Assembly: GCF_021028975.2 (NCBI RefSeq)
Contig: NC_059429.1
Span: 76,756,001-76,820,000 of the forward strand
From: Sphaerodactylus townsendi
Lineage: Eukaryota
DNA: 64,000 nt
Reading direction: 5' to 3'
The number at the start of each line of letters is the position of its first letter. Within the stretch, counting starts at the first letter, position 1. The notes beneath the pieces are model-generated. The model was not told the origin of the DNA. It saw nothing but the letters and a program-made list of their open reading frames with translations, and did no database searches. The position numbers and the translations under genes are program-made. Shown piece by piece: positions 243 to 35,233 of this stretch.

Positions 243-1104
243 CTGATATAGAGGGTTGTTCTGACTATCAACTTTGACAATTGCCATTAATCTTTGCTTT
301 TCCCACATCCAGTATGCAAGGTTTGATTCAGGAGGTCCTGTTTGAGCCACTAGGTACTTGGAATCAGGAGAGAACCCCAGGCTAACAAATTCCTGAACAG
401 CAAAATCAAAGGTATTCAGAACTTTTCGCTTCTTGCATGGGACAGATGACAATTCATAGATTGTGATAGTAGGTTTATCTTGTACTGTCTCTGAAACAGC
501 CAAGTATCGTCGGTTTGGGCTAATAGCCAATGCCAGCATCCCCTGGCTCTTTTCTGAGCCTAGAAAGTACAAACAAAAAGCTTCAATTAATCTAATACAA
601 CATTTTTAATGAGTTGGAATGAAAGTGGCCATACATTTCATACCCCCTTCTTTCCATTTTTTATGTGTTATTTGTGTCCTGAATGCAACTCCTCCACATG
701 CAACTTTTTACCAAATAATTTGCATGACTGACTTTTGAGTAATATTTCATGTATACATTCTACAACTGAAAAGACAGCAGCCAAATCTGTGGGACAAACT
801 TGCCTATGTATGAGGCTGACAACTGTATGTAACCAGAGGTACATTTCAGATTTTGAAGTTGGGAAAATAGGTGGGAAATGGCATTTTCTTTCTTCATAAC
901 ACTGAGGGGCCAGGGAAGCGAGAAAGCAAAGTAAGAGGCTCGTTTACCTGGAATGAACTTCTGCCATTTCTGTTCTATGTGATATTTCATACAGTAATTC
1001 CCCGAGGGATACACTATTATTTGTTCGTCAAAGAAACAAATATTATTTGCTACACGAGACTGGAACCCAAAAACGTGGAGAGCTTGCAACACAATCACCG
1101 ACAT
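243..1104 (-). CDS. CFAP57: Cilia- and flagella-associated protein 57 (WDR65), first two coding exons; gene continues beyond the left edge of the window
   Basis: Coding exons 1104-948 ([36 protein letters not shown]...QKFIP-G, GT donor at 947) and 559-243 ([30 protein letters not shown]...NNPLYQ, AG at 561-560, GT at 242). Frame is continuous across the intron and matches the recalled CFAP57 WD40 N-terminus. A probable non-coding exon 1 ends at 1305 (GTGACG donor), with the acceptor at 1126-1125. Confidence 0.95.
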
Positions 1105-1304
1105 GACGCCTGAGGTTCAGCGACCTGTGCAAGGAGAGAAACAACAAACGTCAGAGTCCCCGCACAGCTGCCTCCTTGGGGTTCCTCCTCCCTTCCTCCA
1201 ATCAGCCCCCGTTGATGCTCTTTTCGTTTCCACGTCCCGTCCTGCCACAGGTCCCCAGGCTTCCTCCCTTCCCTGGGCTCGGCCTCCCTCGATGAAACCG
1301 TCAC

Positions 1305-1483
1305 CGACTTATAGACAGGGAAGTCGAAAACAAACAAACAAAAAAAGCCGAACTGGTTGCTATGGAGACGGCGTCCCAGAACCCCGGCGAAAGCGTCCGA
1401 GCGGAAACGGAAGTGCGTAACAGCGGGCTCTCAGGGTCCGGAAATAGTGGCATACACATCCTCGTGGCTCGGAGAGCGTTTTG
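1305..1483. promoter_or_regulatory. CpG-rich bidirectional promoter CFAP57/EBNA1BP2 with RFX X-box and ETS/GABP sites
   Basis: X-box GTTGCTATGGAGAC at 1356-1369; CGGAAGTG at 1408-1415 and CCGGAAAT at 1438-1445; opposite-strand first-exon donors at 1305 (-) and 1483 (+, GTGAGT). Confidence 0.8.
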
Positions 1484-1824
1484 GTGAGTAAAGGAGGGCA
1501 TTCTCCGTTTCCCGGATTTGGAGCGCGGTCTGGAAAGGCTGACGGGGAATTTCAGGTCGAGGCTGTAATCTTATTTTCTGGTCAAGGTTTTGTGTGATGA
1601 GCAGACAGGAAGCGAGTAGAGGTTTCTCTACCGGCAGATGTGGCGGGGAACCCTTCTACTGAGTTTTTGGTAAAGGTTCAGCAGCACTACCAAAAGCAAA
1701 CTGGTAGATCTACCCTATTTCTTTCACGCTCTTGGGGAGAGAGTGTGCTTCATTTTTTATCCCTTTCCTACAGCTTGGTGGCGGCGAAGTCCAGGTATCA
1801 CCAAACGCAACGCTCCAGGCAGAC

Positions 1825-4800
1825 ATGGAACAAGATCTCTCAACGTCCTCTGATTCTGAAGAATCTGTTGTCACTGACCGAGAGGTACGTTTGATTTTGT
1901 GTTCAAAAGCGAGGGGAAGTTTCAGGTTGCCCTGCCTAACGGTATTGTGAAGTTGGATCTCTTAGTAGCTTATGCTGACTGATGGTGTTGGGTATTTTTG
2001 TTTTATAGACTTATGTGAAAGGCCATTTTTTTCCACTTACCAAGGGCAATTAGGTGCTTAATTCAGTGGCTTAAAAACAGCAATGGCTTTTCACTGAATT
2101 TTTAGGGTAACTTGTGATAAAAGTCCTGGGGGAACACTATATTGTTTCTATATAGTCATAATTATACTTAATGATATATAATGTAGGGCATTATATATCA
2201 TGAGATAGTGCATGTTGGGTCTGACAAAATGAATTACAACTTTATAATGTTATTGGTCTCTATATTTGGGCAGGGGGGAAGTTGAAGAAAATACTGATTT
2301 GCCTAAATCAACTTGGTGAATTTGGCTGTGTTGAGTTTTCTTTCAAATACTGCACCTGTTCTTAGTGGTGCAACATATATTGAGTATTTCAAGCAAAATG
2401 TACTCCTGTAAGGGTAAGACAGCAATTTGGCCATCTCAATCTGGACTGTACTTCCAAGAGTTATGGATAGCTGAACTAATTTCTATGACAATAGTGTGCA
2501 TCAGTTTCCTGGGATAGTATTTATTTATGTGTCACTTTTCTTCCAATATAGCTGCAGAAAGCATTTACAAAAGGTTCATTAAAGCCAGGTCTAAATGTTG
2601 TGCTTGAGGGACGACCAAAGGCTTTCAATAATGTGGTGAGTAACTGGGTGATTATGACTTTTGTCGGCAACCTGAACTGAAGAGTTGTGAATTTAACATT
2701 TAGGTGGGGGATCAGTCACTCTGTTCAACTTGAGCTTAATACTTGCCAGCCAGTTATTCCAATTTTGGAATGGAATTAGTTTTTTAAAATGTTATACAGA
2801 GGGTTTAGAGGTGATAGCCAGAGTGGATTAAAAGTCAGTGACTATAAAAAATTAAGTTTTTTTAATTTTAATTGGATTTTTAAAATAAATTGCTTTGTTG
2901 AAAATAGTTTAAATAGTTTTCGATTCACAATGTCATGCACTTATAGAGATTTCTGTAAGATTATGTTGGGCAGTTTTTCCATATAGAAGATATTAATCAC
3001 AGATGGTTTTATCTTCTCAAAACTGTGAATTTGTGTCTGCAGAGCAAACATACTTCTTCTTCACATGAAAAATGGTATGAAATGAACATAAAGAGTTGAG
3101 AAAAAGACCTTAATCCCATTGCTCCTTTGCAAATCTTTATTCACAGAATTGACCTTCTAAGTGCTACATTTCAAGAAGAAGAAGAAGAAGAGTTTGGATT
3201 TATATCCCCCCTTTCTCTCCTGCAGGAGACTCAAAGGGGCTTACGATCTCCTTGCCCTTCCCCCCTCACAACAAACACCCTGTGAGATAGGTGGGGCCAA
3301 GAGAGCTCCAAGAAGCTGTGACTAGCCCAAGGTCACCCAGCTGGGGTGTGTGGGAGTGTACAGGCTAATCTGAATTCCCCAGATAAGCCTCCACAGCTCA
3401 GACGGCAGAGCTGGGAATCAAACCTGGTTCCTCCAGATTAGATAAAGGGGCTCTTAACCTCCTACCTCCTAGAAGATTGTTTAGAGTGGACTAGATCTGC
3501 ACAAGTAAGAGCAGGAAGGAGCAAGCAGTAAAAATGAAACCTTTTGAGCAGAATATTCCACAAGTTGTGAGATCTGCATGTGTATAGCCTAAGGTTTATC
3601 ATATAATATTCTGTCCTTGGAGGAGAAAATCTATAATGGCAGCAGGCTGTCAAAGAGACCCAGTTTGGGAATATTTTAGGTGAAGGTAAGACAAAACCCA
3701 TGCAAAATGGAAACAGTGAAACAAAGAAATGCAAGGCTTAGAAGCCCAAGTAAAAATGGAAATAGTTCACTTTGCAATAATTTCATAATTATCTATGTAT
3801 GTATTTCTGATAGTATAACCAAACCAATTATTTCTATATAACTACAAAGCTAATACAAAATGCTAATCTAAAAATGAAACCATCATCTAATTGTAAATAT
3901 TAAGATTATACCAGCAACAATGAGTCTTTTTGTAGAAAATCATGATTTAAATCTCTTACTGACTAGTGATTTAAATCGTGATTTAAATCGGTTTGATTTA
4001 AAGCACATCCATCCTCATTGCTGCATTGCCCCTTTGAATCATGTATATGGGGGCAGGTAAACATGTTACTGTTTATTTAGTGAAAACATTATATAACTTT
4101 TTTTGCAAATACAGTCATTTATTTTGTTCCCTTCAAATTCATCAGGCAATGTCTGTCTAATTTTGATTTGACTGTTATTGATGTTGGATGGGCATCTGAG
4201 AGTTAGCAAATAATTTAGGGGAATGAATATTTCAATTTGGGGGTTGTCTTAATGTCTTTAGGGTATGCTTGGACAGGAGCCTTTCAGATTCTGAGTAGGT
4301 AAGGTGACATGGAAGTCAGTGTACAGAAACTCTTACATCTTGCACTTAAATTGCTGTTAATGTGCTTCTTTCTAGGATGGATTGAGACAGTGTCTGTCTG
4401 AATTCCAGAGACATTTAGCCTGGGTAGAAAGGCTTGATGTGACTTCTCATCTGAAAACAAATGTTGCTTCTAGTCACATGCCTGACAAAGATGCTGTTGA
4501 CCCTGAGGATGACTTCAAGAGAGAGATGAGTTTGTAAGTCTTTGTAAGTGAATTGCTTCCAGGGAATTTTCTGGGTACACTTTATATACAGTGTTTGCTC
4601 CAAAAGGACAATCCATGGCCCACTATTTACAAGGACAGCAAGTTACATTCATAACCTTAAGCCCCAAGGCTGTCTTCAGATATGGAATGCAAATCTTTCT
4701 AGCAACCACATCTAGACAGTCAAAGTTGGCAAACAATTATCCTTTTGCTAGTGAAAAAAATCAGGATCAAACAGGGAAGAAGGTACTAACATTCCAGTCT

Positions 4801-7800
4801 TATCAACTAATAGTCTAGTGGTTGGGAGTTTCCCAGCTGAAGTACTGGTGTTCTGCTGTGAGCAAAGAATTCCACACACTGAATCTTGGGCTGACTCCAT
4901 TCAAAAGATGAGCTTGTAAGTCCACGTATATGAAATGTTTCCTGAAAACCTAGTATGTTGCACTGCAAATTGCATGCTAGTATTAATGTCTGTGAGAGAG
5001 GAACAAATGAGAGAAATGAGGATCCCAGGAACAAGAAAGAATGCTTGTTATTATTATTATTTATTGGTCTTGATAGACCACCCAACCCCCGAAGGGCTTT
5101 GGGCGGTGTACAATAAAATATAAAACAAATTGTTATGAAAGCAAAGTTTCCAGAAGGCAGTTGCCATGAGCTGCCTGATACTTTGTTTTCCTGAATAAGC
5201 CCTACCCCGAAAATAAGCCCTATCATGATTTTTCAGGATTTTTGGAAGATGCTTAAAATATAAGCCCTACAGGTAGTTACAGATCAGGATGGTGTACTCC
5301 CTGTCAATGAGGATGCAACTTGCATCACATGTGACAGGGAAGCAACGGAGCTGCCGAGAGCCCACCTTAATGAGTTGTGAAGGTACTGTATTTCCCCGAA
5401 AATAAGCCTGTCTTATTTTCAGGGAAACACGGTACCTCTGTGGAACACAGTAATGCAGTGTAAAACAAGACATTTGGGGGATGTGAATGAAGCCTCCACA
5501 AGACCCTACCTTGTCAGAGCATGAAATACACATATGTAAAAATGTTGCTATAATTCTTTCTATTTTCCCAGTTATCATCAGGCTCAAGCATCTGTGCTGG
5601 AAGCATTACCTCGGTTACATCAGCTCAAAATCCCTACTAGACGGCCTGATGACTATTTTGCAGAGATGGCAAAATCTGACCAACAGATGCAGAAGGTATC
5701 TATTATGTTCTTCCCTTCTTTCTAAGAGCTCAGGTTCTTCCCCCTGTTTGGTCTTCACAGTTAAGAGGTAAGCCAGGGTGGGAGTGTTCAATCTCATTTA
5801 TTCCTAGACCACCTTTCCGCTATTGCATTTCTTTATTATGAGCCACCATGTGTAGTCGTGCCCGCGAGGTCAGTGCAAGAACGAGACGAGACGCGGTGAT
5901 AACATCTGGTGGAGAGCGCCAGCAGCGGGAGCGCGAGTGTCCGTGTTCCTAGCGACTCTGCCGCGTGCTGGTTCTTGGCACCTTTTATTATGATTCTAGC
6001 GGGGGCGTGTAGAGGGGCGGAACGGGGGGGATTCCGGGAGAGCGGGAGAGCGGGAGACTGAGAGATCATCATGTGATGCATGATCTCACCTGGCTGCTAC
6101 GTGCGGAGAGGAGCATCAGCGTCTGGGCCTAATCCTCACCTGGGGGCAAGACCATTGTCCCTTTGTCCGGGACACCCGGTGGTTGTGAGCCAGGTAGTTC
6201 ATGACCCGTGCCTCATCGGGGGATGAGGGGTGGGGGAGCGGTGCGACCAGAAGGCCGTAGGAGCGCCGGTGTTCCAGCGCTCTACTTACGGTGCTGCTGG
6301 GTCAGCAGTTCATCCCTACAACCATGAGCCCATCTTTGGATGGGAAAGGGCAGGATTCAAGTCCAATAAAATATCCACATACACACATATCCACCTTCAA
6401 AATATGGTCTGATAAAGTACTGTGAGATATTTCTGTAAGTGTAATGTTTGCAGGAAAATTCCAAAAGTTTTTTAAAGTAAAAATGGAAGAAAGGGGGTTT
6501 CAGAAACTCCACAAACAGAAAAGTGATGTTTATGCCTATGCTCATCTTGCAACATTAAAGAAGAATGCTGACTTAGATCAGCAGTATTGGATTGTCTAGC
6601 AGCCCTGTACAACCATTGGCTTTCATTTCCTGTTCAGCACCTGTCATCTGTTGTACTTTGCCGCATTTTCCTGCCATTTCTTTTTATTCTGCTATTGAGC
6701 AGGATTCATGCACTCAGAGAATTTGCCTTTTCCTTCTCTGACTTTGTGCTCTCCCCTGTAATGGGCAGCATGGGGGAGTTCCTATTTTTTAGAAAATCAT
6801 CCTGGAAAGGTCAATCACAGATCCTAGCCAGCAGGATTCCTGCTGTTTTCTGTACACACATATGGCCTCTTCAATCACCATGCCCCTTCAAAAATGCCTT
6901 CTTAGTGCATTCTTCCATCCGGTTTAAATGCCATCTCTTCTCCATTTTGGAGCATTGCCCTTTGCTGTTTCTCCTAAGTTTGGTTTCTTATTTCCCATAT
7001 ATTAAAAATCAATTTGTTGTCCTGAATCTGTACTGTCGATAGGGTGATAGACTGATAGGATGATGGACTGATAGATGGATCCATACGTCACATGTTGCCA
7101 GCGCACAATCATAATACATGATTTGTGAATAAATTTCTATCTACTGGAACTGTTTGCTCTGCATGGTGTGTATTCCTGTTGGGGAGGGGGGTGTATGGTT
7201 CCCATCATAATTCATATTTGCCATATGCAGGAATCGCTGGCTGCAACATGATGTTCTTCACTTTCCCTGCAAAGTGAAAAGAAGGTAGGGATATTGGGAA
7301 AATGCAGGGATTCTCCTTCAAGAAGCACAGTGGCTTTGGAGCAGTTGCATAATTGAAAATCTGACCTGAAGGGAGATTCTGTTTGAGGCAGAGATTTTCT
7401 GTGTACAATTGACCAATGACTTTCAAAGCAGAAAAGATAGATGAGATACCACAGATAATTGATGCTGTTGTTTGTTGCTTCTTATATGAACTCTGGTGTA
7501 AGGTAAGTTCAAATAAATAAGATTTTGCTGTATGCAGTTAAAAAGAGATAAAGAGAGATTAATTGGCATGATCAGTAAATCAACACATCTTTTATTAATT
7601 GCAGCTGTTTGATTAGCTGAGCAATTGTTTCATCAGTTTTCCTGAGGTCCTAACTGTCATTCTCTCACATTGAAAATAACCTTTCACATAAGTTTCTGGT
7701 ACGTGAGCAAGCACAGTTGTTGTTGTTCTCTCATCAGTGTAAGTACTATAAGAAGCATATCTTTATAGTCTTTAAAGGTGGTGATGATAAATTGAATCAT

Positions 7801-10800
7801 TGTAGCTGGAATTTTTAAGCAAGAGGTTGTCCTGATTTCATGTGTAACAGCTAAATTGCAGAAATTATGGGCATGTCATATTTAGGAACATGGTACTCTT
7901 AAAAATATGCACTGAAACCTGAGAAGAGGTCATGGTCGTAAACTAATCCCAAGTGCGTTCTTGTTGTTTGGTCTTTTTCCATTAGATTCGTCAAAAGCTG
8001 AAGAGCAAACAAGAAGCCATGGAGAAGTCTGAAAGGGCCAAACAGCTCCGTGCTCTGAGGAAATATGGCAAAAAGGTGAGAGGATCCGAGATAAGCCACT
8101 GCCCTTGAACTAAAGGGAGAGAGCTGGCACACCAAATTGTCTGGAAGTCTATGAAGTGTACCCCTTTGGGAAAGGAATCTAGTTGCTAAGCATAAACAAA
8201 CAAGAATCTTGATGTGCAGTGGGAAGTGTGCCTATTTGCATGCTTGTGCACAAAAGGAAAAGAAATGAAACACAAGATGGGGAACAACTGTGATAGGCTC
8301 ATCCTCTGCTTCTTGATAGGTACAAACTGAAGTGCTGCAGAAGAGGCAAAAGGAGAAGTCTACGATGTTGCATGCCGTCAAGAAATATCAGAAAGGTGAG
8401 CTATTTCACATTTCTCTCCTGTCCTCCTCTATTGTGCTTTAAGAGGAGGGAGAAATGGCATATGAAGTGTCTTGAGGTGGGAAAACGGGTAGGAACCGCT
8501 GGTCACCACTGCAGTTAAGATGCCAATCGATGTAGTGAAAGATTACTCCGGCAGATGGTATGGGCTTTGGTCCTCGATTCTCAGCTCAGGGCAGCAGCTT
8601 GGTCTGTGGCAGCTCAGCATCTGTAGAGTCCACAAACATGAGTATTCATTGAAAGAGAAGCCTCACCTGCATTCAAGTTTTTTTACAGAGCTTATGGTTC
8701 TATGAAGCTTTTCCCTTGAAACTTGCTTGCCTGTTCTACAGCTTGTTGATCTGATTACATCTTTTGGTGAAAGCTTTAAATATTTTTTCCCACTCGAAAT
8801 GTGTTGGCTAGTCTTTAAGAAATTCTGGCACAGTCATGGTCTTCAGTTGATTTAGAAGGATGTAATTCTTCTTAAGATTGCATTATCAGTGTCCCTGAGA
8901 TGATATATTTTATATAAATTCATTATTACATGTAAGGCTACTGGGCCAGGAATACTAGAAAGAAGGGATGGCAGCTTGTACCTCTCTGTCTTTCCTGGCA
9001 GCCTTACTGATTATTTGAGTCTGTCTGGTCATCAATTACTGTTTAGTATTTCGAAGGGCACACCAATTACAGCTATTACAGCTGTATAAAACCCTCAGTC
9101 TCCATCTATAAAATGGAAATTACAGTGACCTATCATATGGGGTTTGGGAACATTTAAGAAGAGCTTATGCATAGAGATTTTGTCCGCTGCAGAATAAAGC
9201 CTATTTTGGCTTTCTTCTGTGACTTGGCAATTCAGTGCAATTCTTTATGTAGGTCTCTCAGACAAGCTGGAATTCCTGGAGGGAGAACAGTCAGCATCTT
9301 CTCAGGGCAAGAAGAAAGAGGGGACTGGAGGCCAGCTGATAAAGAAAGGGTAAGGCCTTTGAAGTGGAGGGAATTCATCCAAATACGCCACTTTCCTAAT
9401 TGTCACTTTTTTGCTTCAAGAAGTTCTGTAATGTGTACATTTGCACTCTTTTCAAAGAACAGAAATAGATGAACTGAAATATATTTACTATTGTATGTTC
9501 TGTTGGCATTCAGCTGATGTGCAGAATATTTCACTGAGAAATGGGAGACAACACTGAGCTCTCAAAAATATATTTTTGAACTATGTTTTGCAGTCTGAAT
9601 TGTTTGTTTTTAAAATACAAATTTCTGTTCTCTCATAAGCTTTAAAGCATAAAGGCAGTATGTATGAGAGTAAGCTTCATGTTTAAAAATCATCAGATTT
9701 CAAAGGAAGCTGCATTTGGGACTAGCACTACCAGGGAACTTGATCACTGCAGCTAACTAAAAGACTAATGTGGTGAGATGGGGTTGTGGAGTCAAATAAT
9801 CTGCTATCTAATGGTGTTCTCCCTGTGCTCCTGATAGCTGAATAAAATTTTAGAGCTGTATTTTAGAGCAGTGATTTCCAATGGGGCATTCGTTAGCAGG
9901 TTTGCCATTTTTGGTTTGACAAAGCATCCTTTCCCTAAAGAGCCATTTTTTCTTTTTGGCCACCTCATTGGCACATGGAGTGTTTTTTTAAAAAACCCAG
10001 GAGGCATCACTTTTGTGGCTGCTGGGAGCTGCTTCCATCATAGGAAAAGGTTTGGTTATAAGCCTCCCAACATTTTGTGACAGATCCCTGCAACCTACAG
10101 CTGAACAAGATCAGGGACTCCTTCAGATCATTGGTGAACTAGGAGGCAATTTGTTATCTTTGTTCATAAATGTGTGAATTGGAAGGCAGAGGCAGCAGAT
10201 GTTCCTCCTTTGGTGAGAAAGCAGGGTTGCAGGTAAACAGAAGCCTCATAACCAACCATCTGGGATGTGTTTTCTTTCAGACCAAATGCCAAACGTCGCT
10301 ACAAGAATCAGAAATTTGGTTTTGGTGGTAAAAAGAAAGGCTCCAAGTGGAACACTCGAGAAAGTCACAATGATGTGTCCAGCTTTCGTGCTAGTGTAGC
10401 CCACTCTAAGGGCTCCAGGAAAGCAGGAAAAAAGGGTGCTAATGTAAGTATTTGCCCTGGACAGGAATGAAGGGATAGACTGTTATTGCTGTGAGACTAT
10501 GTTCTGGATTAGTTGGGTGTAAAAGGCAATTTTGTAGTTTTAATAAGTAGCATCCATTTTGATTCCTCAAGAAATTCTTCCCACAACTGGGCTGCTTGGG
10601 GAACATATGTTCTGGGACTGAATAAGAACTAGGGGGCATTCATTGAAAATGCTGGGGGGAAGAATTAGGACTAATAAAAGGAAACACTTCTTCACGCACC
10701 GTGTGATTGGCGTTTGGAATATGCTGCCACAGGAGGTAGTGATGGCCACTAACCTGGATAGTTTAAAAAGGGCTTGGACAGATTTATGGAGGAGAATTCG

Positions 10801-11103
10801 ATCTCTGGCTACCAATCTTGATCCTCCTTAACCTGAGATTGCAAATGCCTTAGCAGACCAGGTGCTCAGGAGCAGCAGCAGCAGGAGGCCATTGCTTTCA
10901 CCTCCTGTATGTGAGCTCCCAAAGGCACCTGGTGGGCCACTGTGAGTAGCAGAGTGCTGGACTAGATGGACTCTGGTCTGATTCAGCAGGCTAGTTCTTA
11001 TGTTCTTAAGGTAATAGGAAAATCACCAATGCTGCATTTTTTTTCTTTGCAGAAGAGGCCTGGCAAAAAGGTGAGGCAAAAGATGAAGAACCGCTCTCGA
11101 TAG
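1825..11103 (+). CDS. EBNA1BP2: EBNA1-binding protein 2 (Ebp2, 60S ribosome biogenesis factor), complete, ~300 aa, 9 coding exons
   Basis: Exons 1825-1884, 2552-2635, 4376-4533, 5572-5695, 7986-8075, 8320-8395, 9253-9349, 10281-10443, 11053-11103 (903 nt), all GT-AG and in frame. Conserved motifs LAWVERLDVT, DPEDDFKREMSFY, PTRRPDDYFAEMAKSD and KRRYKNQKFGFGGKKKGSKWNT. Non-coding exon 1 ends at 1483; exon 2 starts at 1774. Confidence 0.97.
3173..3465 (-). mobile_element. tRNA-derived SINE (Squam3-like) with (CTT)n tail
   Basis: (AAG)n at 3173-3192 followed by the reverse complement of the same SINE body seen at 18743-18860 (+) and 47873-48135 (-). Family name is from recall. Confidence 0.75.
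5179..5434. mobile_element. Tc1/mariner-type MITE remnant (TA-flanked, AAAATAAG subterminal motifs)
   Basis: Palindromic TACTGTATTTCCCCGAAAATAAG...CTTATTTTCAGGGAAACACGGTA at about 5385-5433; related to the element at 32216-32472. Confidence 0.5.
5851..6320 (-). mobile_element. Solo LTR of an LTR retroelement/endogenous retrovirus (470 bp)
   Basis: Termini TGTAG...CTACA; perfect 6-bp target-site duplication ACCATG (5845-5850 and 6321-6326); CpG-rich relative to the flanks; GC box and TAATAAAAGG on the minus strand. Confidence 0.85.
10630..11008 (+). mobile_element. CR1 LINE 3' fragment
   Basis: Nearly identical to 25535-25915 (..[17 protein letters not shown].., 3' UTR, TTCTTATG tail). Confidence 0.9.
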
Positions 11104-11866
11104 AGAAAGAAACGGGTGAATTTTTTTCTTTGTAATGTTTGGCATTCTTCAAGAACTAGTTATGAAAATGGTAGATGCGACTGTCTGATATTGAGACTTG
11201 CACATTTGTACATGATGCAGTCACTGGTTGTTCTCTGCTGCCTCTTCTACACTTGTTTTTCCTTTTGTGAGACTGAGGAATTAAACAGTTTTGAAAAAAA
11301 AATTGTCTGCTTTCCCCATGTGTTTCTGCTGTGAGACCACTGATCCCTTAAGTTTCCTGGGCTTTTTTCAAAAATAGCCACAGCCTGTTCAGCAGGGGAT
11401 GTGATATCCTGTAATGGAGGGTTTCATGGGGCAGCAGGGGGAGGCACAGGGACTATTTGCGGCACTGTGTGGGCACACAGGACTGAGCAGATAGCACCAT
11501 CTTGCACATAGTCTATCGCTGTTGTCTGGGCTGTCTCTCATGTCAGTCTGCCTACCATTAAGAGCACTGCCCCCCCCCCCTTAAGGATTGAATAGAGGTG
11601 AACTTCCTCTATACAATGTTTCTCAATGTGGAAGCGATCTTCTATTTTGTAAAAACTTATAAATAAATATAGGAAGGCAGAAGTAATTGTGGCAGGTAAT
11701 ACTTTGGAACCGGTTTATTGTAAGCGCAGAAGTGTTGTATTGTAAGAGCAGAGATCTTTGTTGCCTACAGTGCTTGTTTTTCTGCATGAGACAGTTGGGA
11801 GGATGCAGATCAGAAATCCTAGATTAGTAGCTGGGGTCTGCAAACTCCTATGATGTTGCGTCCATC

Positions 11867-14800
11867 TTATCTCTTGTCCTTCATCATCTCCTTCAGGCGC
11901 CACATGGCAGCCATATATCTGGTGATTTCAGTGCTTCGACTAGGGAAGTTCAGTCTCTTGTCATTCCGGTCAGTACTGATCTGCAAAGAAAAACTTCATC
12001 ATAATATAAAAAACATTTGGCAGAAGGAGTAATGAACTGAACATCTGACAACCCATACTTGGCTGGAATCTCTGACTTCTGATAATCCTACAGTATTTCA
12101 AGTTTTCTGAAATGTCTAGAAATGGCTTGATCTTGCCCCCCCTCCCAGTCTCCCATTACTTGGCAACCCTTAGCTCCACACAAGCCCCCTTAAACCTACT
12201 CACCAAAGGTGTGGAGAACCAGCCAATTTCCTGGCCCTCTGTCTGTGGTTCTTTATATTTCTTAGTTGGTTCAAGTGCAGCATGATGAATAAGTTTCAGG
12301 AATTTAGCTGTAGGGTCAAAGAACAGGTATTAAGTGAGAATTACTTCATATAGAGTATCAATACAATGCATCAATAGTTATGAGCCACTGAGATAAAGTG
12401 AATCCTTAAAGTAATTGATATCGCTAATTCTCAATGTGGCCAAATATGTGGATATTTAAAGTCAGAGAGTAGAGCCATGAACAGACATTGCATATGTTTC
12501 TACAAACATGACAAAGGCTCATTCCGCACATGCAGAATAATGCACTTTCAAACTGCTTTCACTGTTCTTTGAAGCTGTGTGGAATAGCAAAATCCACTTG
12601 CAAACAGTTGTGAAAGTGGTTTGAAAATGCATTATTTTGCGTGTGCAGAAGGGGCCAAAGTCTCCTGCTTGAAGAGAAATCTAAAATCTATAAAAACAAT
12701 GGGAAATTAAAACCCTCCAAAGTGAACAGGATATATTGAATGTTAAGAGTGGCTCTTGGCACCAGTGGCTTTAAGAAATGAATGTCCTCAGTGGTTGCTG
12801 CCAGCATTCAAGCCTTGGTTTCTGTCAGTAAAAGGGGGGTGGGGTGGTCAATGCCCTTTTCAGGGCTGTTCTGGCCTTTGAAAAGAACTCATTGAGGCCA
12901 GACCTAGCAGCAAGTCACTTGGCATTTCCTACCATGTGACTTTCATGACTCACCCAGGCCCAACTACTTGCTACAGCCACCCTATGAAACCAGTAGTGGT
13001 AGAGTTTCAAAATAGGCTCTGGAAGACCTAGGTTTGAATTCTCACTCTGTTCTACATGTTCACCGAATGACTGTGGGCCGGTCAAGTGCACTCAGCCTAA
13101 ATTACCTCATGGTTAGTGTGAGGAAAAAAAACAGAAGAATGATATAAGTTGCTTTGGGGTTCTATTCTGGAGAAAGGTAGGATATAGATTAAAAACCAAA
13201 GATGGGGGATAAATAAAATGTAGGTTGGTTGGTGGAAAGGAGAGAAGGAAAAGGTAAGAAATGGGTTGCCAGAAAGAAGCAAAGACCAAATAGTGTGGAG
13301 AGGGGGATACAGAGGAAAATGAGATGCCTTGTTTAAATTCTTGTGGGTTCACTCACGCAGAACTGCCTGGCAGCTGCCACTATAAAACTTGACCTGTAAT
13401 TTTCCTGGGTAGAGACTACAAACGGGAGAGAAAGCTGACAATTGGAGGGTTGCTAGGGAAGGAAAAGAAAGAACAGTGGAGGAGGATTAAATGAGATGAC
13501 TCCCAAAAGTCCTTGTGAGTCCCTCCACTTCTGTGCATTATTACATAGCACTGCAGCATACATAACTTACCTGGACTGTCCAAATTTTGCAATTGCCTGC
13601 TAGGTAATTTTAACATGTTACTTGTGCTTACTCCCATGAAAGATTTTACTATCTTGGTAGCATTTGCATCTTGCTTGGACTGTGGATTAGTATCACAAAA
13701 AGCACTTTCCTTTTCATATATGCTGAACAACCAGAAATATGTCAGAAACAGTAATTTTGCAATCTGTATTTCTCAGTCTGTTAATGGCAAAGCAACAGTA
13801 AACAATGGCTTTAAATCATTCATTACCATCAGCGGGCTCCTCTAAGTTATCATGCCACGACATTGGCTTTCGGGTGATAGTGTGAACTGAAGGCAAAAAA
13901 ATGCATATTAGTTCATTTATTTAAAATGCATATATCCTGTCTTTATCTTTTTCAACTCAACAAGCAACAAAAAGATGCAAGGATACAAAAAAAAGTCTAT
14001 TGACTATACAAGTTAAAAATGTAGCCAGATCTGCCAAAACAATTTACTGTCCAACAACTATCTTCTGAAATAAAACTCTTGTACACCTTCCTGAATGCAG
14101 CGTGTGAAGGCACCCTCTATTCCCACCATTACAGCAGACTGCATCTACCACAGAAAAAGGCCATGAATTAACTGTTGCTATATGGACCGGCCTAAGAAAC
14201 GGTGCTACAAAGCAAAGGCTGTTTGAACATAGCTGGCCTTTGGCCAAGGACGGCCACAACTAAAATATCTCATGCCAGAATGGGCAGTGATTCATTTCCA
14301 TCTTTGTCAGGAATTGTATTTCCTAAAGGAAAACTTTAAGATGACGCTCTTAGCTCCTCAAGTGGCAGAGACAACAAGGTATTCTGGTCATCTGATGTAT
14401 AATTTTGCCATGCACCTGCCTACTGCCGAGGGCCTGCCCACTTCAAGCCTTTCATGAAATTAGGTGTGTAACTGTCAGTATGGGTGCCTCTGTTATTGAA
14501 CTCTGACTGTCCCTTGTGTTTGGATTTTAATGGATTAGTTTAATGATATGCTGTTTTGTTTAGTAGCCACTGCTATGCTATGGGCTATTAGGAATCTCCA
14601 TCCCCTGATTTTACTGGGCACTGGGACATTAATTTTCTTATAGCCTTGACTTCTGCTGGATCATGAGGCATCTCTTATTATCACCATGCACCTGTAAAAG
14701 CAGACTGTTAAGGAAAAAGATCCTTCAACAATAAAAAAGGGTGCCTGCAGGCTTCACTCAGTGTTGCTGCTCCTGTCTTCATATACTGCTGATGCCGATA

Positions 14801-15074
14801 GATCTAGCCTCCAAAATCAACGGTGCACTTTCCCCCCTTTGTGTTCTGTGGTGCTGGGGAAAGCCAACCCGTGTGGTGCGGAAATCGCCTCTCCCCCACC
14901 CCGCTCGCCAAGCTCAGTGCTGCTCCTTACTGCCGTACCCTTTAGGAGGGGGTTCACCCCGTACTCAGTGTGCAGGCGCTGGCATCGCAGTTCTTTTCGG
15001 ACCGTTTCACAGAAGATCTTGTTCTGACTTACGGGGTCGAGCGGCTCCTTGGTGGCTCTCGCGACCCCTGCCAT
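11867..15074 (-). CDS. CFAP144: Cilia- and flagella-associated protein 144 (FAM183A), complete, 137 aa, 4 coding exons
   Basis: Exons 15074-14939 ([45 protein letters not shown]), 13886-13827 ([20 protein letters not shown]), 12307-12204 ([35 protein letters not shown]), 11980-11867 ([37 protein letters not shown]); 414 nt, GT-AG, in frame. [17 protein letters not shown] and QEIGW match recalled FAM183A. Tail-to-tail with EBNA1BP2 as in human. AATAAA on the minus strand at 11719-11714. Confidence 0.93.
12516..12656. mobile_element. PIF/Harbinger-like MITE
   Basis: Imperfect TIRs GGCTCATTCCGCACATGCAGAATAATGCA / TGCATTATTTTGCGTGTGCAGAAGGGGCC; 3-bp flanking repeat AAA. Confidence 0.7.
12990..13220 (+). 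mobile_element. Old tRNA-derived SINE
   Basis: Degenerate A/B-box head (CCAGTAGTGGTAGAG...GGTTTGAATTC), CCTAAATTACCTCATGGTTAGTGTGAGG core, tail GAAAGGTAGGATATA. Confidence 0.55.
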
Positions 15075-15290
15075 ATACCTCTGTCTGGGAAACTTTCCTC
15101 GGTGTTTTTTGCCCTGGTTTCCTAGCAACTGAATGGGATCTTTACTGTCTTAAGACAGGAAGTCGGGCTTCGCCTCTTTTTCTCTCATTGGTTGAGAAAT
15201 TAAAGCTCCCGCAGCGCTGATTGGCTGATCTGCTCAGGGCTTAACATTTGAATCCGCGTTCGGGGAAAGCTGGAAGACGTAAGTCGGCAC
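15075..15290. promoter_or_regulatory. Bidirectional promoter CFAP144/PIF1: RFX X-box, ETS site, two CCAAT boxes and CHR element
   Basis: X-box GTTTCCTAGCAAC at 15117-15129; AGGAAGT at 15157-15163; inverted CCAAT boxes (ATTGG) at 15187 and 15220; CHR TTTGAA at 15247-15252; candidate PIF1 non-coding exon 1 donors GTAAGT at 15279 and 15304; acceptor at 15431-15432. Confidence 0.8.
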
Positions 15291-15444
15291 GAAACAAACC
15301 CAAGTAAGTCATTGCAAAACCTGGTGGATATAAAAAAGCCGATATTTCTCCAAGGACGAATCCAGTTCGGTTCTAGTCCGTTTTGCACAAATCACCCATC
15401 TTAGCCGGTCTTCGGCTTCAATTTCTCTACAGTTCGGGGACAGC

Positions 15445-28993: not shown

Positions 28994-29120
28994 GACAACT
29001 GGAACAATTGTGAGCATACCTCATTCCAGTTTGTTGTTAATTTGGAAAACTATTTTTGCTGGCTGCTTTGGCTTAATTGCTCGTGTACAAAGGAGTATTC
29101 TTTTCCTCTATTACAGATCA

Positions 29121-29162
29121 CCCTAGGGCAGGTAGATACAGCCCTAGGGCAGGTAGATACAG
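29121..29162. repeat. Perfect 21-bp tandem duplication in the PIF1 3' UTR
   Basis: CCCTAGGGCAGGTAGATACAG occurs twice. Confidence 0.95.
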
Positions 29163-29902
29163 CAGAGTTGTTCCAAAGCAAAATCACATACTGGAAGAGA
29201 GGTTATTAAGCTAAAAGCTCAGTAAATATTTGTCATGATTGATTAGTCCGTTTTATTTGTGTTTAAGCCTGTATACATATGCATTGTATATGTGAAAGCA
29301 ATTTTTCACTGAAGAATAAAAAACTAATTTACAAGTACAAGCTACCTAGTCTTCCAAATTGCTTTTAAATGTGCCTTAATTTTCAGAATTCATATATTCC
29401 AGTTAGACTGACATGTAATGCTTTCAACAAAACAGGGTACTACAGTAGAAGCTTTCTGGATTAGTTTCAAGGTATTTCATTCTAGTTCTGTATTATAGCT
29501 TACACTCTGTCTTCTATATGTGTGTCTGCTTACTGCCTTGAGCGACAAGATCATGCAACACAGACTTTGTAACCAATATCTTTCATTTAAGGCAGCTATA
29601 CTTGTTGGAGCTACTTCTAATCCCAGATACAAGAGACAGTGGAAATGTAAGTATGAATTCTCTGGGACAAAGTCACCCATTTAGCAAAATGAACTGCTGA
29701 AATGATCTAAGACAAATATTGCTATTAAACAAGATAAAGCAGTACACGTAATCTACTGGAGAACACTCACAATAAGCAGATATTGTCCACAGAACAAAAT
29801 ATCAATGCTGCTAGGAAATCCATTGTAAGACAACTGTGTTTCCCTTTTAGAGTTACTATCACGCAAAAGAGACAATTCAGTACACAATCTTATTTCCTCA
29901 GT

Positions 29903-32900
29903 TCAAGGTTTCTTTTGTGCCAAAATATCTAAAGGAAGTAAGAATGAATTCACAGGGCAGATACCCAGAGACTTCCAGTCCATCACAGAAGCCCCAAGAG
30001 CATTGGCATCAGATGAGGTTGTGGAACTAGCATCTTCATGTTGTGAATGGCAATTAGTGATCTGGAACATAGGGAGAGACGTGTTATGTAATTCTCTGCT
30101 ACTGCTGTTCAGCTGGCTTGAATCCATTTGCATTCTGCTTCCCTCACCAGCATAGGGGCTATTTAACTCCACATAGCATTTGTACATGTGGCTCTTCAGT
30201 TTCATGATATCAAGGAAAACAAGCTGTTCTGGAAGAGACAGCAACAGGTCCAGGACCACAGCCGCCTCTGTAGAAATCAAAAAAATAGGAGATAATAGCT
30301 AACTACATGCTAATATAGCCATACATGCAATCTTTTGGCCTGTACCCCACTGCAGATTCTCAAAACTCTTGCTGTTTCTGCTCTGATTTGGCATTCTCTT
30401 TTCAGCAATGATGGCAGGAAAGGTTGAGTATTCCTTTTGCTTCCCTATTATTTGTTCAGATTTTTATTCTGCCTCTGAGACTTATGATAGTATACAGTAT
30501 GGACAATTACCCAGTTCGCCCATTTGTTATGAGAAAATACTCAACAGTTAATGAACCAGCTAAATATTTTAAAGTACTTCTATTCTTCTCCTATGTTATC
30601 CTATTCTTCCCTGCTTCAATTATCATGTTATTCTAATTCTCACAGATAGCAATATTAACACTATCTTTCTTTATTGATCCCAAATCAGGGAAATAATTAA
30701 AACATCATTCATTCCACTACTGCCTTCTTCCTTTAAATATAACATATTCCCCATGTTCGTACACTGCATTCTCATACTAACACAGTTGGGACAAACCAGC
30801 ATTCTTTAGCATGTTTTTTGAGCAGTCCTCAGAGATAGTGGTACAATGGCTTATTGATTTGTCTAGACTGCATTTGCCTCCTATTTGTACTGCAGAAATA
30901 TGATTGTGAAGGCCTACAGTATGTATCTCTATGTCTCAGCACTGTGAGGCCATTCATCCTTTTCCTGCTCAAACTCTACTTACCACCAGGTGAGAGTTCT
31001 GGTGCTTTGGACCCATGTGAGAGCATGGCCAGGTACTTGTAGATCTTTTCAAAGTCCACATGGAAGTCTTGCTCTTCTGCAGGAGCCTGTTCTGGGGGGA
31101 TCACGGTCTGAGAGTCTTCTGTTCTCCCTTGTACAGCTGTGGGTGAACACTGTTGGATCTTTGCATCAACAGGCTTTGGGGGCACAGAATGAAGCAAGCT
31201 AAGAGGCTCAGCAGATGCAACAGTTAGAACCTGGGAGGGTGGGAACATAAAGTCAAGAGACTTCAAATGAAGAAGTGAATCCACCCAGTGTCCAAACAGC
31301 TTAAGATTTCCTATGGAGCAGAGTGTAATTTCGAGCACTTGTCTTTTCCAAAGTAGCTGCCTTCAAAGGCACAGGCCTCACATAAAAGACAAGGTGAATG
31401 GCCAGAATGGATCACTCATGCTACTGCATTTATAACAGTAATCATCTGTTAGCAAGGTTACAAAACATACACACTTGGGAAAATGCAGTTGCCATACTGT
31501 CCTCAATACTGCCTGTCAGCTTCTCAGCCAGCCGTGTCCATACCTAAAAACAGTAAATACAAACAGTTAAAACAGATAAAGACCTGAATGCCTTCCATTC
31601 CAGTCTAACCAACACCCATAACTTTCTTTTACCTCAATAGGTGCTGGAGTTGGGCCATCCTGCCATTGGCTCTTGATGGACTGATACTGTGCCTTGACTG
31701 CTTCCTTTGCCACCTTTTTTTTAAGCAGTTCCACGAAGGCCAAGATCTGTGACAGAATATTTTATATAGTTTCAGGATAGTTGCATCTGTTTACAGTAAA
31801 ACATCCAGATCCAAATCTAGTAGCACTTTAGAAACCAACAAAATGTTCAGGGTATGAGTTTTCAAGAGTCAAAACTCCTTTTATTAGATAAAGAGCTTGA
31901 ACTTTTGGAAGCTCATATCCCAAAAATGTTGTTGGTCCCTGATATGCAACTGGACTCTAATCTAGTTGTTCCAACTATTTTAGAGACTACATGCATAGAA
32001 CACATTGAGTGAAATGTAGGAACCCTTCCACCTTTTGTTGTTCATAACTTTAAGCAATATATCTACACTTCATGTGTGTGTTGAAGTGAACCATGACTCA
32101 GGAGTAGAGGTTTTAACCTTATATCAAGCTCCTGTTCAATTCTGAAGATATTAACAAGCTGGTTATCCTTCTACCAGACACCAAACACTGAGATATTTCT
32201 CATTCACAAGAAAGGTACTGTGTTTCTCTGAAAATAAGACAGTGTCTTATATTAATTTTTGCTCCCAAAGATGCGCTATGTCTTATTTTCAGGGGATGTC
32301 TTATTTTTCCGCTCCACAGCTGCATGCTCTGGTGTTCTGTTCAACGGGCATGCTTCCAAACAAAAACTTTGCTACATCTTACTTTCAGGGGATGTTTTAT
32401 ATTTAGCACTTCAGCAAAACCTCTACTACATCTTATTCTCAGGGGATGTCTTATTTTCAGAGAAATAGGGTAGGCTCCGCAATATTTGTGTATTTTGGCT
32501 GGTTCCCCAGGCATTGGCAACCCCTAATCCCACTGTGAATTAATTTAAGCAGGTTATTTATAGTGGTTTACATCTGGGGACAGTTATATGAAACTCCCCC
32601 ATTCCTGGTGCAACTGCTGATGCAGCCCAGTGGCAATGGGGCTTCCACATGACAGTTTCCCCATCACCCAGCAATAGCCAGCTACCATCCCTTGGTTTAC
32701 TGGAGCTTTTAAAAACAAAACAGAAACAAAACAGAATCATGCATATCCCTTTATGTCCAGCAGCGGAAGAACTAGATACATTTGTTTTTAAAGTAAAAGC
32801 TGGGGGTTCAGGGAATCAATAACACACTACAATAATGTTAGATCACTATAACAATATTTAATGGCAAATTGTTTTTAAAAAGCTACCTATGGTGGGCGGG

Positions 32901-33635
32901 GGAATGGCCACCTTGGGGTTGGGAAAATGGCTGCCATTCAAGCTTTATTGTGATCTTTCCCAAAACCTTTTGGCCAGGCAGATTTGAGAAAGATCAAGGG
33001 GAAGCTGGGGAATTGCAACATAATGCTGTGAAAAAGCAGGAAGAAAATCTACCTCCAAACAGCATTGAACTTGAGACAAATGACCTTTGTCTGTTGGTAA
33101 GCCACATACAAGAGACAAAGGCTTAACCAACATAAACTTATGATCTTCTACTCTCTTGTCCCCAGTGGTAAGAACTGAAATTATTCTCCATGATCGAGAC
33201 TTTTTCAATATGTGTCAGTTACAAACCTGTACTGATTGTGCAAACCCTCTACGGATGTATATATATATATATATATATTAAAAAAACTGTTTTGGAAAAC
33301 GACGATGCACATAAACCTTTCCATCCAAGTACTGCCCAGCTCCGATTTGCATCGTTTCCCAACTATACGCATCCTTGCAAAACCCTGTTCTTCTAGGGGC
33401 CAACGCAGCCTGAGCGGAGAGAGATCTCCCCTCCCCCAGCCTATCTGAATGCACCCACCTCAGCCTCATCCCTCGCGGGCAGATACTTCTTCAGTAGCTC
33501 CGGGCGCAGCGGCCCTTCGCCGTGAGCTCTCAAGGCCTTGAGAAGGCGTCGCTTTTCTCGATCTGTCCAGACGTGGGCGACAGGGCCCTGAGCGTAGCGC
33601 GAAGGTGTCGAACGACGCCTTGCCGGCGGCTTCAT
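29903..33635 (-). CDS. SNAPC2: snRNA-activating protein complex subunit 2 (SNAP45), complete, ~323 aa, 5 coding exons
   Basis: Exons 33635-33459 (MKPPARRRSTPSRY...WTDREKRRLL...DEAE), 31746-31633 (ILAFVELLKKKVAKEAV...PAPIE), 31543-31475 (VWTRLAEKLTG...AFSQ), 31230-30984 (VLTVASAEPLSLLHS...VDFEKIYKYL...), 30267-29903 (EAAVVLDLLLSLPE...GICPVNSFLLPL...*); 972 nt, GT-AG, in frame; motifs match recalled SNAPC2. Confidence 0.95.
32216..32472. mobile_element. Tc1/mariner-type MITE
   Basis: TA-flanked inverted ends TACTGTGTTTCTCTGAAAATAAGAC...GTCTTATTTTCAGAGAAATAGGGTA; internal repeats of CTTATTTTCAGGGGATG. Confidence 0.7.
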
Positions 33636-33779
33636 GCCGGTGAAAGCAGGAGAGACCCGCTGGCCTCCTCTAGTTCGGTGTTTAATCAACTCCCTTATCT
33701 GCTCCCCCCATCCCCACGCCTCGTTCCCACAGTGATAGATCTCCGGTACTTCTCCGCACCACAGCCGCACCTTAAACCG

Positions 33780-34045
33780 AAGCCATCTGGCGTCGCATAC
33801 TAATGACGTAAATAGAAGCCGAACAAGATCAGGACTAACAGGAGGCGTGGCTAGTGAAGCCTTACCTCCATGGATAAATCGCGGTGAAGGAAGTTATTGT
33901 GGCTGGTGACGTCTCTTGTTGCTGTGGTAACAGAACGGCAGGAGGCTGGAGCTGTTTTGCTGGGATTCTGCAGGCGCGGCAAGGGACTGCCCCAGCAGGG
34001 AATCCTAAGGCCTCCGTCCGTTGCCATGGCGACAGAGCCGGGCTC
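33780..34045. promoter_or_regulatory. SNAPC2 upstream promoter region with two RFX X-boxes and two CRE sites
   Basis: TGACGT at 33804-33809, TGACGTC at 33907-33913, GTTGCTGTGGTAAC at 33918-33931, GTTGCCATGGCGAC at 34020-34033; CpG-rich over 33400-34060. Confidence 0.7.
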
Positions 34046-34428: not shown

Positions 34429-35233
34429 GGCTGAAAAGAAGCTGTGGTGGGAGCTCTGTGCCAGATCAGGACTGTGGTTCTAGGAAAGGAGCCAGGTTCT
34501 CCCATCATTAACTTCAGGACCCTCTGTGGTTCTTTACAGAAATGTGGAGCACTGCACATGCCACATGGAATTCATGACTCTACATGAATTTCTTGCTAAA
34601 GACAGTGGTCATTATGCCTGCACTGTCTCCTACACAGAAAGTCCAGTTTCAAGACTTTCTCTCACACATTGGTGGGTGAGTGCATTCTTCCTGTTCTGAA
34701 AAATGGAAGAAATGTGGGCTTCTTGCAGACTGCCTGGTGGAAGGATTAACAAGATAAGGATACTTACCACTCTGGATCTCCCAGGCAACCTACCTGACTT
34801 AAAATTGTGCCATGTCCACTGGCTAAGGTGGAGGCAGTGAAGGGAGGGTTCAAACAGCGCAGTGCAGACTGCAAGCAGCTCCATTGGAGGCAACTCTCCT
34901 GGTTATACTTTTCTGTGGGTCCAAGCCCCTGCACAAACACACTGCTTGGTTTGGTTGTAAAAGCCAGAAGGCCCAGCCATGTGTGAAGAGAACAGGAGAA
35001 GTAAATGTGGATGTCCTGGCCAGGGCTGCAGATTCCTGCACCTTGTTTTCCTGTCAGTGTATGGATGCCCCTTCAAGTGGAGCCTCTCTATAGAAGGATG
35101 TCTATTGTGGGTTGCACTAAGTCCTGGCCTATTAGTACTAAGGGCCCACTCTGTTCTTCTCCTGTCATTAAAGTGCAATGCCTCACACTTCAAGCTCTGA
35201 GACTGAGTCCCATGATGAGCACTACCACTGTAG

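What the first reader, a model, noticed from the sequence alone, without database searches (positions are those of the whole stretch)
243..34045. Chain of RFX-containing bidirectional promoters pairing ciliary genes with growth and replication genes
Seen: five genes alternate strand (- + - + -) in 34 kb. Both head-to-head junctions are short and contain an X-box on the side of the axonemal gene (1356-1369 for CFAP57, 15117-15129 for CFAP144). The partner side carries ETS/GABP sites (EBNA1BP2) or CCAAT+CHR (PIF1). A third promoter (SNAPC2) has two more X-boxes. Known: RFX factors drive motile-cilia genes through X-boxes. Inference: the cluster may be co-regulated in multiciliated or spermatogenic cells, or each promoter may switch direction between proliferating and ciliated states.
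Basis: partly seen in the sequence, partly recalled or inferred. Interest (0 to 1): 0.7.

Follow-up and report, generated by a model that had tools for sequence, protein, structure and literature searches.

The report
Cilia genes sharing back-to-back promoters
In a gecko, two cilia genes each share a short back-to-back promoter with a ribosome or DNA-helicase gene, a gene order also seen in a frog; each gene likely obeys only its own control sites, so this is a fairly ordinary layout rather than a co-regulated cluster.

Summary
Five genes alternate strand (CFAP57, EBNA1BP2, CFAP144, PIF1, SNAPC2), and four X-boxes sit in their three CpG-island promoters (0 of 3000 shuffles reach four). The first four genes have the same order in Xenopus; SNAPC2 does not. 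The interpretation mostly fails. In mouse one RFX1/2/3 peak covers the Cfap57/Ebna1bp2 promoter, yet Rfx2 or Rfx3 loss cuts Cfap57 threefold and lists no change for Ebna1bp2. In three RNA runs of a close relative, CFAP144 splice reads were 730/67/0, EBNA1BP2 73/59/27 and SNAPC2 37/54/23. Frog Multicilin raises WDR65 (CFAP57) 36-fold and changes no partner significantly. Best reading: RFX drives the ciliary direction only, and ETS or CCAAT/CHR sites run the partner. Open points: frog PIF1 rises 2-2.7-fold (not significant), and the two best X-boxes lie on the far side of the SNAPC2 island, ahead of a weak, unannotated Ig-like exon candidate. This scan has noted single RFX head-to-head pairs in other genomes. 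New member of a known kind; interest 0.3.

The parts
243..1330 (-). CFAP57 (WDR65), first two exons: 948 to about 1330 (ATG 1104) and 243-559; the gene runs off the window's left end
   Evidence: Homologues named CFAP57; read depth 45-56 at 1189-1217 and 19 at 1316 in run X12; splice sites read from the sequence; the 5' end is approximate
1356..1369 (.). X-box 1, in the shared CFAP57/EBNA1BP2 promoter
   Evidence: the mouse orthologous promoter has one RFX1/2/3 peak
1402..1444 (+). Three ETS/GABP-type cores (1402, 1408, 1439)
   Evidence: 174 of 5000 shuffles reach three; binding untested
1420..11302 (+). EBNA1BP2 (EBP2): exon-1 donor after 1483, ATG 1825, stop 11101-11103, poly(A) signal 11280; start approximate
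   Evidence: Pfam Ebp2; four GT-AG joints; coordinates
11691..15139 (-). CFAP144 (FAM183A): 4 exons, ATG 15074, 137 codons
   Evidence: Pfam FAM183 E=1.5e-5, below the cut-off on one exon; three CT-AC joints and read-end piles at 11691 and 15093-15139; ORF
15117..15129 (.). X-box 2, overlapping the CFAP144 5' ends
15187..15252 (.). CCAAT (15187), CCAAT (15220), CHR (15247): late-cell-cycle module facing PIF1
   Evidence: human PIF1 is among 148 DREAM-bound CHR genes (PMC4176359)
15250..29320 (+). PIF1 helicase: exon-1 donor after 15278, ATG 15445, stop 28991-28993, poly(A) signal 29315; both ends inferred
   Evidence: Pfam PIF1; almost no reads in the three RNA runs
29246..33670 (-). SNAPC2: 5 coding exons, ATG 33635, 323 codons; start site not fixed
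   Evidence: Pfam SNAPC2 on three exons; four joints and a 3'-end pile at 29246-29250; ORF
33918..33931 (.). X-box 3, far side of the SNAPC2 CpG island
34020..34033 (.). X-box 4, near-perfect palindrome
34540..34675 (+). Candidate exon with an Ig F-strand-like motif; possible unannotated transcript or relic behind X-boxes 3 and 4 (weak)
   Evidence: Only + strand exon candidate passing strict splice thresholds in 33.9-71.3 kb; Pfam Ig_2 E=0.0042, chance-level among 251 ORFs; no close homologue; no splice joint among the rows shown

Best explanation
These are two compact back-to-back CpG-island promoters in which each gene likely answers only to its own sites: RFX at the X-box would switch on CFAP57 or CFAP144 in ciliated and sperm-forming cells, while ETS/GABP would keep EBNA1BP2 on broadly and NF-Y with MuvB (CCAAT/CHR) would time PIF1 to late cell cycle. 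Shown here: the genes, the sites, the spread of expression across three RNA runs. Shown in published orthologue tables: RFX binding and one-sided loss in mouse, same four-gene order in frog. Inferred: factor binding in this gecko, and that interlocked promoters are what has held the order together. The SNAPC2 X-boxes are most likely bound by RFX without making SNAPC2 cilia-specific.
For: Mouse ependymal cells (PMC7498320 Tables S1, S6, S8): one peak each for RFX1, RFX2 and RFX3 is assigned to both Cfap57 and Ebna1bp2. Cfap57 log2FC is -1.68 (Rfx3-/-) and -1.59 (Rfx2-/-), Fam183b -3.79 (Rfx3-/-); the Ebna1bp2 and Snapc2 rows are blank for all three knockouts. Mouse testis (PMC4498915 Table S1): Ebna1bp2 is RFX2-bound and not changed; Fam183b is down 1.34 log2 at P30. 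RNA of a close relative, splice reads in X12/X13/X14: CFAP144 730/67/0, EBNA1BP2 73/59/27, SNAPC2 37/54/23; CFAP57 depth at base 372 is 86/7/0. Frog, Multicilin 9 h: WDR65 36x (padj 1.7e-21), EBNA1BP2 0.46x (padj 0.54), PIF1 2.7x (padj 0.27), SNAPC2 0.96x. PMC4176359 reports that CHR sites in head-to-head pairs never gave co-expression. PMC2077898 abstract: about 10% of human genes are head-to-head and GABP binds over 80% of such promoters.
Against: EBNA1BP2 reads fall in the same rank order as CFAP144 across the three runs (73>59>27). PIF1 depth is highest in the CFAP-rich run (1.2 against 0.19 and 0.13 at 15676-16302, a handful of reads), and frog PIF1 rises 2.2x, 2.0x and 2.7x at 3, 6 and 9 h (p 0.080, 0.073, 0.045). 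RFX dependence of CFAP57 is not uniform: Wdr65 is bound but unchanged in Rfx2-/- testis and is listed as a core MCC gene absent from the frog Chung/Kwon (Rfx2 knockdown) list. Single knockouts may be masked by other RFX factors. No species with the CFAP144|PIF1 pair has RFX-loss data that I could see. The RNA libraries gave about equal counts on both strands and their tissues are unknown.
Confidence: 0.72

Rival explanations
1. Partial coupling at the CFAP144|PIF1 promoter only: RFX binding about 60-130 bp from the CCAAT/CHR module opens the island and lifts PIF1 in multiciliated precursors or spermatocytes, which is why frog and gecko keep the pair.
For: The pair is head-to-head 70 bp apart in the frog gene models. 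Frog PIF1 rises 2.0-2.7x at all three Multicilin time points. PIF1 depth is highest in the CFAP-rich run.
Against: None of the frog values is significant after correction. CDC20, another CHR gene, rises 2.3x in the same table, so Multicilin's own effect on cell-cycle genes suffices. PIF1 stays a CHR gene in human, where (recalled) it lies on another chromosome. CHR head-to-head pairs are reported not to co-express.
Confidence: 0.12
2. The whole five-gene block is co-activated by RFX in ciliated or spermatogenic cells.
For: All three promoters carry X-boxes; mouse Ebna1bp2 and Snapc2 promoters are RFX-bound; EBNA1BP2 rank order follows CFAP144.
Against: No listed change of Ebna1bp2 or Snapc2 in three knockouts, nor of Ebna1bp2 in testis. 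SNAPC2 is flat in frog and highest in a run with little CFAP144. SNAPC2 is unlinked in frog.
Confidence: 0.06
3. Each promoter flips direction: RFX turns the ciliary side on and the growth side off as cells differentiate.
For: Frog EBNA1BP2 falls to 0.52x and 0.46x at 6 and 9 h as WDR65 rises.
Against: The fall is not significant after correction and is shared by genes with other promoters (MCM7 0.44x, AURKB 0.40x, USP24 0.41x, ELOVL1 0.46x). RFX loss does not raise Ebna1bp2 in mouse. EBNA1BP2 is highest in the run where CFAP57 is highest, and frog PIF1 goes up, not down.
Confidence: 0.05
4. Third junction only, compatible with the main reading: X-boxes 3 and 4 drive an unannotated + strand transcript (small secreted Ig-like gene, lncRNA or relic), making SNAPC2 a third head-to-head partner.
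For: Both sites lie on the far side of the island. The best-scoring + strand exon candidate in 37 kb is 500 bp downstream. Of 5 ATGs tested, only 34091 stays open through a weak donor at 34164 into it, and its first 24 codons have a hydrophobic core. X12 has depth 6 at 33994-34320 against about 2.5 in the other runs.
Against: No GT-AG joint among the rows shown (188 not shown), and depth 0.6/0/0 at 34648-34974. The 33994-34320 bin includes a repeat. The exon would give only half an Ig fold. No protein of 80-2000 aa shares words with it although the database holds annotated squamate proteins. Mouse Snapc2 has its own RFX1 peak at -110.
Confidence: 0.2

Closest known systems
Mouse Cfap57/Ebna1bp2 shared promoter bound by RFX1/2/3 (PMC7498320 and PMC4498915 supplements)
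   Same: Orthologous head-to-head pair with an RFX site between the starts.
   Different: Already documented as RFX-bound in the tables; here only the motif is seen. The gecko and frog also carry the second pair, CFAP144|PIF1.
RFX X-box promoters of motile-cilia genes (RFX2/RFX3 regulon)
   Same: Palindromic 13-14 bp X-boxes at or just beside the 5' ends of CFAP57 and CFAP144.
   Different: Nothing in kind; binding is untested in this species.
GABP-bound bidirectional CpG-island promoters (PMC2077898)
   Same: Divergent starts well under 1 kb apart in a CpG island; ETS cores at the first junction.
   Different: The second junction has no CGGAAR core, only AGGAAR cores; there the partner side is CCAAT/CHR.
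CHR/DREAM late-cell-cycle promoters (PMC4176359), which include human PIF1
   Same: Canonical TTTGAA near the inferred start with two CCAAT boxes upstream.
   Different: Shares its island with an X-box gene; the paper reports such pairs as not co-expressed.
Xenopus laevis PIF1-FAM183B-EBNA1BP2-WDR65 block (gene coordinates in PMC5245798 tables)
   Same: Same four genes, order and orientation; both divergent junctions under 100 bp in the models.
   Different: Frog has USP24 beyond PIF1 and SNAPC2 on another scaffold; the gecko has SNAPC2, then a KCNA gene 37 kb further.

Membership tests
RFX X-box ciliary promoter | X-box palindrome near the transcription start | tested here: met
   X-box 2 overlaps the CFAP144 read ends and X-box 1 lies about 40 bp beyond the last shown CFAP57 coverage
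RFX X-box ciliary promoter | RFX binds the site | not testable with these tools
   No ChIP for this species; mouse orthologous promoters are bound
RFX X-box ciliary promoter | Gene depends on RFX | tested here: inconclusive
   Orthologues only: Cfap57 down in ependyma but not in testis; Fam183b down in both; WDR65 absent from the frog Rfx2 list
RFX X-box ciliary promoter | X-box letters conserved in orthologous promoters | tested here: inconclusive
   A contig of organism D covers 33456-34209 with 50 other letters and 30 gap letters, but the single positions were not shown; no other vertebrate DNA was on hand
Bidirectional (head-to-head) promoter | Divergent starts under 1 kb apart in a CpG island | tested here: met
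   ATG-to-ATG 721 and 371 bp; islands 901-1900 and 14801-16200
Bidirectional (head-to-head) promoter | Third junction has a divergent partner for SNAPC2 | tested here: inconclusive
Co-regulated gene cluster | Members rise and fall together | tested here: not met
   PIF1 too low in the three runs to judge
Co-regulated gene cluster | Shared element needed by both directions | tested here: not met
   For the mouse Cfap57/Ebna1bp2 pair; untested for CFAP144|PIF1
Co-regulated gene cluster | Linkage conserved across lineages | tested here: inconclusive
   Four of five genes linked in frog; three of five listed together in yak; SNAPC2 unlinked in frog
CHR/DREAM late-cell-cycle promoter (PIF1) | CHR near the start with upstream CCAAT boxes | tested here: met
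   the PIF1 start is inferred from the exon-1 donor at 15278
CHR/DREAM late-cell-cycle promoter (PIF1) | DREAM/MMB binding and cell-cycle-timed expression | not testable with these tools
   Human PIF1 qualifies

The most novel reading that the evidence does not exclude
The roughly 130-bp CFAP144|PIF1 promoter is an old tetrapod device, kept in frog and gecko and broken up in mammals, by which RFX co-opts a CHR-controlled helicase into the multiciliated or meiotic programme; and the two strongest X-boxes mark an unannotated RFX-driven gene head-to-head with SNAPC2.
Probability: 0.12. Interest if true: 0.6.

Novelty: new member of a known kind. Interest (0 to 1): 0.3.

Why it matters
As it stands, it is a tidy example of opposite programmes packed within about 130 bp without obvious cross-talk, and a record of gene order: PIF1 sat head-to-head with CFAP144 in the frog-reptile ancestor (inferred from two species). 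The CFAP144|PIF1 promoter is a handy natural reporter for how a palindromic, orientation-free RFX site acts in one direction, and it can be tested in Xenopus epidermis. If PIF1 proved RFX-coupled, it would link a replication helicase to multiciliogenesis in non-mammals.

Tried and rejected
Promoter alignment across species: not possible; the genome has no relatives held and the contig lay of organism D showed only 40 of 860 difference rows. Run search: no RNA holder listed; RNA runs came as additions from a relative. Human RFX paper supplement (PMC5838959): 0 hits for the six gene names in 5 files. Human airway single-cell supplement (PMC6826037): 0 hits in the one 13,758-character file held; the marker tables were not among the text. 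Sixth gene on the + strand: 149 of 159 unmasked ORFs of 50+ aa in 34-64 kb and 102 of 102 ORFs of 55+ aa in the next 30 kb were scanned in Pfam; 3 weak hits, none over cut-off. The repeat mask hid the KCNA gene from that scan (found), so genes of a multi-copy family or with small exons could be missed. The Ig-like exon matched only generic multi-Ig proteins (21 hits; 4 of 5 checked are Ig-repeat proteins) and one PDB chain at E=0.94; the Atlas gave no answer. A sugar-transporter search for the expected mammalian neighbour gave no match near the window among 9 of 172 candidates scored. The frog FAM183B counts were dropped: that gene model spans EBNA1BP2 on the other strand. The third promoter (33680-34230) is single-copy in the genome search, so not a repeat. 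Literature: searches for 3 of 5 gene names, bidirectional promoter + RFX + cilia + head-to-head, PIF1 + multiciliated and SNAPC2 + EBNA1BP2 + chicken listed no paper describing this chain; only listings were read for most hits.
Full report
Setting. The window is G000:C5:76756001-76820000 of a 1.81-Gb genome. A protein identical over the CFAP57 exon carries a gecko label, and the next hits are other squamates. I added 50 kb to the left and 150 kb to the right.

Genes. CFAP57 (-) is identified by homologues. EBNA1BP2 (+), CFAP144 (-), PIF1 (+) and SNAPC2 (-) are identified by Pfam on single exons (the FAM183 hit is E=1.5e-5, under the cut-off). RNA reads from three runs of a close relative give four GT-AG joints in EBNA1BP2 and three CT-AC joints in CFAP144, and four joints in SNAPC2. 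Joined by those coordinates, CFAP144 reads 137 codons and SNAPC2 323. ATG-to-ATG distances are 721 and 371 bp. CFAP144 read ends pile at 15093-15139 and PIF1's first donor is at 15278, so those starts are roughly 110-140 bp apart (PIF1's start inferred).

Sites. The four X-boxes are at the stated places. A strict pattern finds 4 in the three promoters against 0.035 in shuffles (0 of 3000 reach 4), 15 in 264 kb, and none in the other 14 of 17 CpG-rich segments. The pattern was written after seeing the sites. Two recalled consensus patterns each hit only two places in 64 kb, all among these four; site 15117 needs a looser pattern. The PIF1 side has CCAAT, CCAAT 33 bp on, then TTTGAA; 4 of 5000 shuffles give that module. 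The ETS cluster is weaker: 174 of 5000 shuffles reach three cores. Letter-level conservation of the X-boxes could not be tested.

Conservation of order. Gene coordinates in the tables of PMC5245798 place X. laevis PIF1 (340725-351534, -), FAM183B (from 351604, +), EBNA1BP2 (to 367025, -) and WDR65 (from 366951, +) on one scaffold: same four genes and orientations, with 70 bp between PIF1 and FAM183B. USP24 follows PIF1 there, and SNAPC2 is on another scaffold with AURKB and PER1. A yak study lists only FAM183A, EBNA1BP2 and CFAP57 within 100 kb of four SNPs. That human PIF1 and SNAPC2, and mouse Fam183b, lie elsewhere is recalled; the mouse table order fits it (rows 533, 534 against 1181 and 1509). 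So the old unit is four genes, and SNAPC2 is a lineage-dependent neighbour.

Does RFX act on both sides? Mouse ependymal cells: peaks RFX1_42, RFX2_166 and RFX3_369 are each assigned to both Cfap57 and Ebna1bp2. Cfap57 falls 1.68 and 1.59 log2 in Rfx3 and Rfx2 knockouts; Fam183b falls 3.79 in Rfx3 knockouts. The Ebna1bp2 and Snapc2 rows carry no values in a table that gives only significant changes over 1.5-fold; I read blank as unchanged. Snapc2 has an RFX1 peak at -110; Pif1 does not occur in the text held, which was cut when stored. Mouse testis: Ebna1bp2, Wdr65 and Fam183b are RFX2-bound, and only Fam183b falls. Frog, Multicilin on a Notch background: WDR65 36x at 9 h; EBNA1BP2 0.99, 0.52, 0.46x; PIF1 2.2, 2.0, 2.7x; SNAPC2 0.92, 1.10, 0.96x at 3, 6, 9 h; none of the three partners passes correction. 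Only this one of the three comparisons was in the stored text. EBNA1BP2's fall is shared by MCM7, AURKB, USP24 and ELOVL1, and PIF1's rise by CDC20. In the relative's RNA, from equal amounts read, splice reads are CFAP144 730/67/0, EBNA1BP2 73/59/27, SNAPC2 37/54/23; PIF1 is near zero in all three.

Against my reading. EBNA1BP2 follows CFAP144's rank order, if weakly. PIF1 trends upward with ciliogenesis in frog and in run X12. Wdr65 is unchanged in Rfx2-/- testis and missing from the frog Rfx2-knockdown list, so redundancy among RFX factors could also hide a partner effect. The RNA runs are effectively unstranded and of unknown tissue.

Mechanism. Most likely each island is held open by several factors, and each direction is set by the sites next to its own start. 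RFX dimers on the X-box would drive the ciliary gene; GABP would support EBNA1BP2 and two-way firing (PMC2077898); NF-Y and MuvB complexes would time PIF1, as for human PIF1. PMC4176359 states that CHR sites in head-to-head pairs did not give co-expression and suggests that the arrangement of elements sets direction. Binding in the gecko is inferred throughout. Interlocked promoters are hard to separate without damage, which would explain the long-kept order without shared regulation (inference). Confidence 0.72.

Third promoter. Its X-boxes are the best matches but lie 283-398 bp upstream of the SNAPC2 ATG, past the end of SNAPC2 coverage, and SNAPC2 does not track ciliary genes. A candidate + strand exon at 34540-34675 is the only one passing strict splice thresholds in 37 kb (19 rows at looser thresholds). 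It has an Ig F-strand-like motif and can be reached in frame from a hydrophobic 24-codon leader. It lacks RNA joints, close homologues and half of the fold. I give a real divergent transcript about 0.2.

What I saw of each paper. PMC7498320: passages, section 17, supplement rows and two parts. PMC5245798: passages and supplement rows (files 13-17 not searched; files 7-9 cut). PMC4498915: passages and supplement rows. PMC4176359: passages. PMC2077898: abstract and outline. PMC9756674: passages. PMC5838959 and PMC6826037: supplement searches with no hits. Peak files and uncut tables that I could not see may bear on PIF1 in frog. Four searches listed no paper on the chain. The scan's own notes hold nothing near this place and several single RFX head-to-head pairs in other genomes; one note supplied the PMC5838959 lead.

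Verdict. Observation confirmed; interpretation partly supported. A new member of a known kind, interest 0.3. The boldest reading not excluded (RFX coupling of PIF1 plus a hidden sixth gene) has probability about 0.12 and would deserve 0.6.

Noticed in passing
window 29246-29320: PIF1's first poly(A) signal (+, 29315) lies beyond SNAPC2's read-mapped 3' end (29246-29250; signal at 29252), so the two 3' UTRs probably overlap tail-to-tail by some 80-100 bases. PIF1's end is inferred.
   Followed up: partly
L008 24-119 (74024-74119 counted from the window start): A second pair of strong X-boxes 82 bp apart, outside any CpG island, about 900 bases past the KCNA stop codon. Target unknown.
   Followed up: no
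L007 7226-9133 +: Intronless Shaker-type potassium channel ORF, KCNA3-like by recalled motifs; the next clear coding gene right of SNAPC2. Frog has USP24 beyond PIF1 instead, so a rearrangement boundary lies near here in one lineage.
   Followed up: partly
window 34210-34427: Repeat-like insertion absent from the contig of organism D, which joins 34209 to 34428.
   Followed up: no
window 23832-25931: Long reverse-transcriptase-like ORF (479 aa) and its tail inside a PIF1 intron; CR1-type LINE by recall. Shorter pieces at 10600-11010 and 35950-37400.
   Followed up: no
window 58688-59149 -: Three neighbouring weak exon candidates on the minus strand; the overlapping 126-aa ORF has no Pfam hit.
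   Followed up: partly
window 33804-33809 and 33907-33912: Two CRE-type half sites in the SNAPC2 island, one 6 bp from X-box 3.
   Followed up: no
L017 710-3133 - and L018 1474-3224 +: Fragmented LTR-retroelement-like ORFs (RT/integrase-like; gag-like) about 100-115 kb right of the window; seen only.
   Followed up: no
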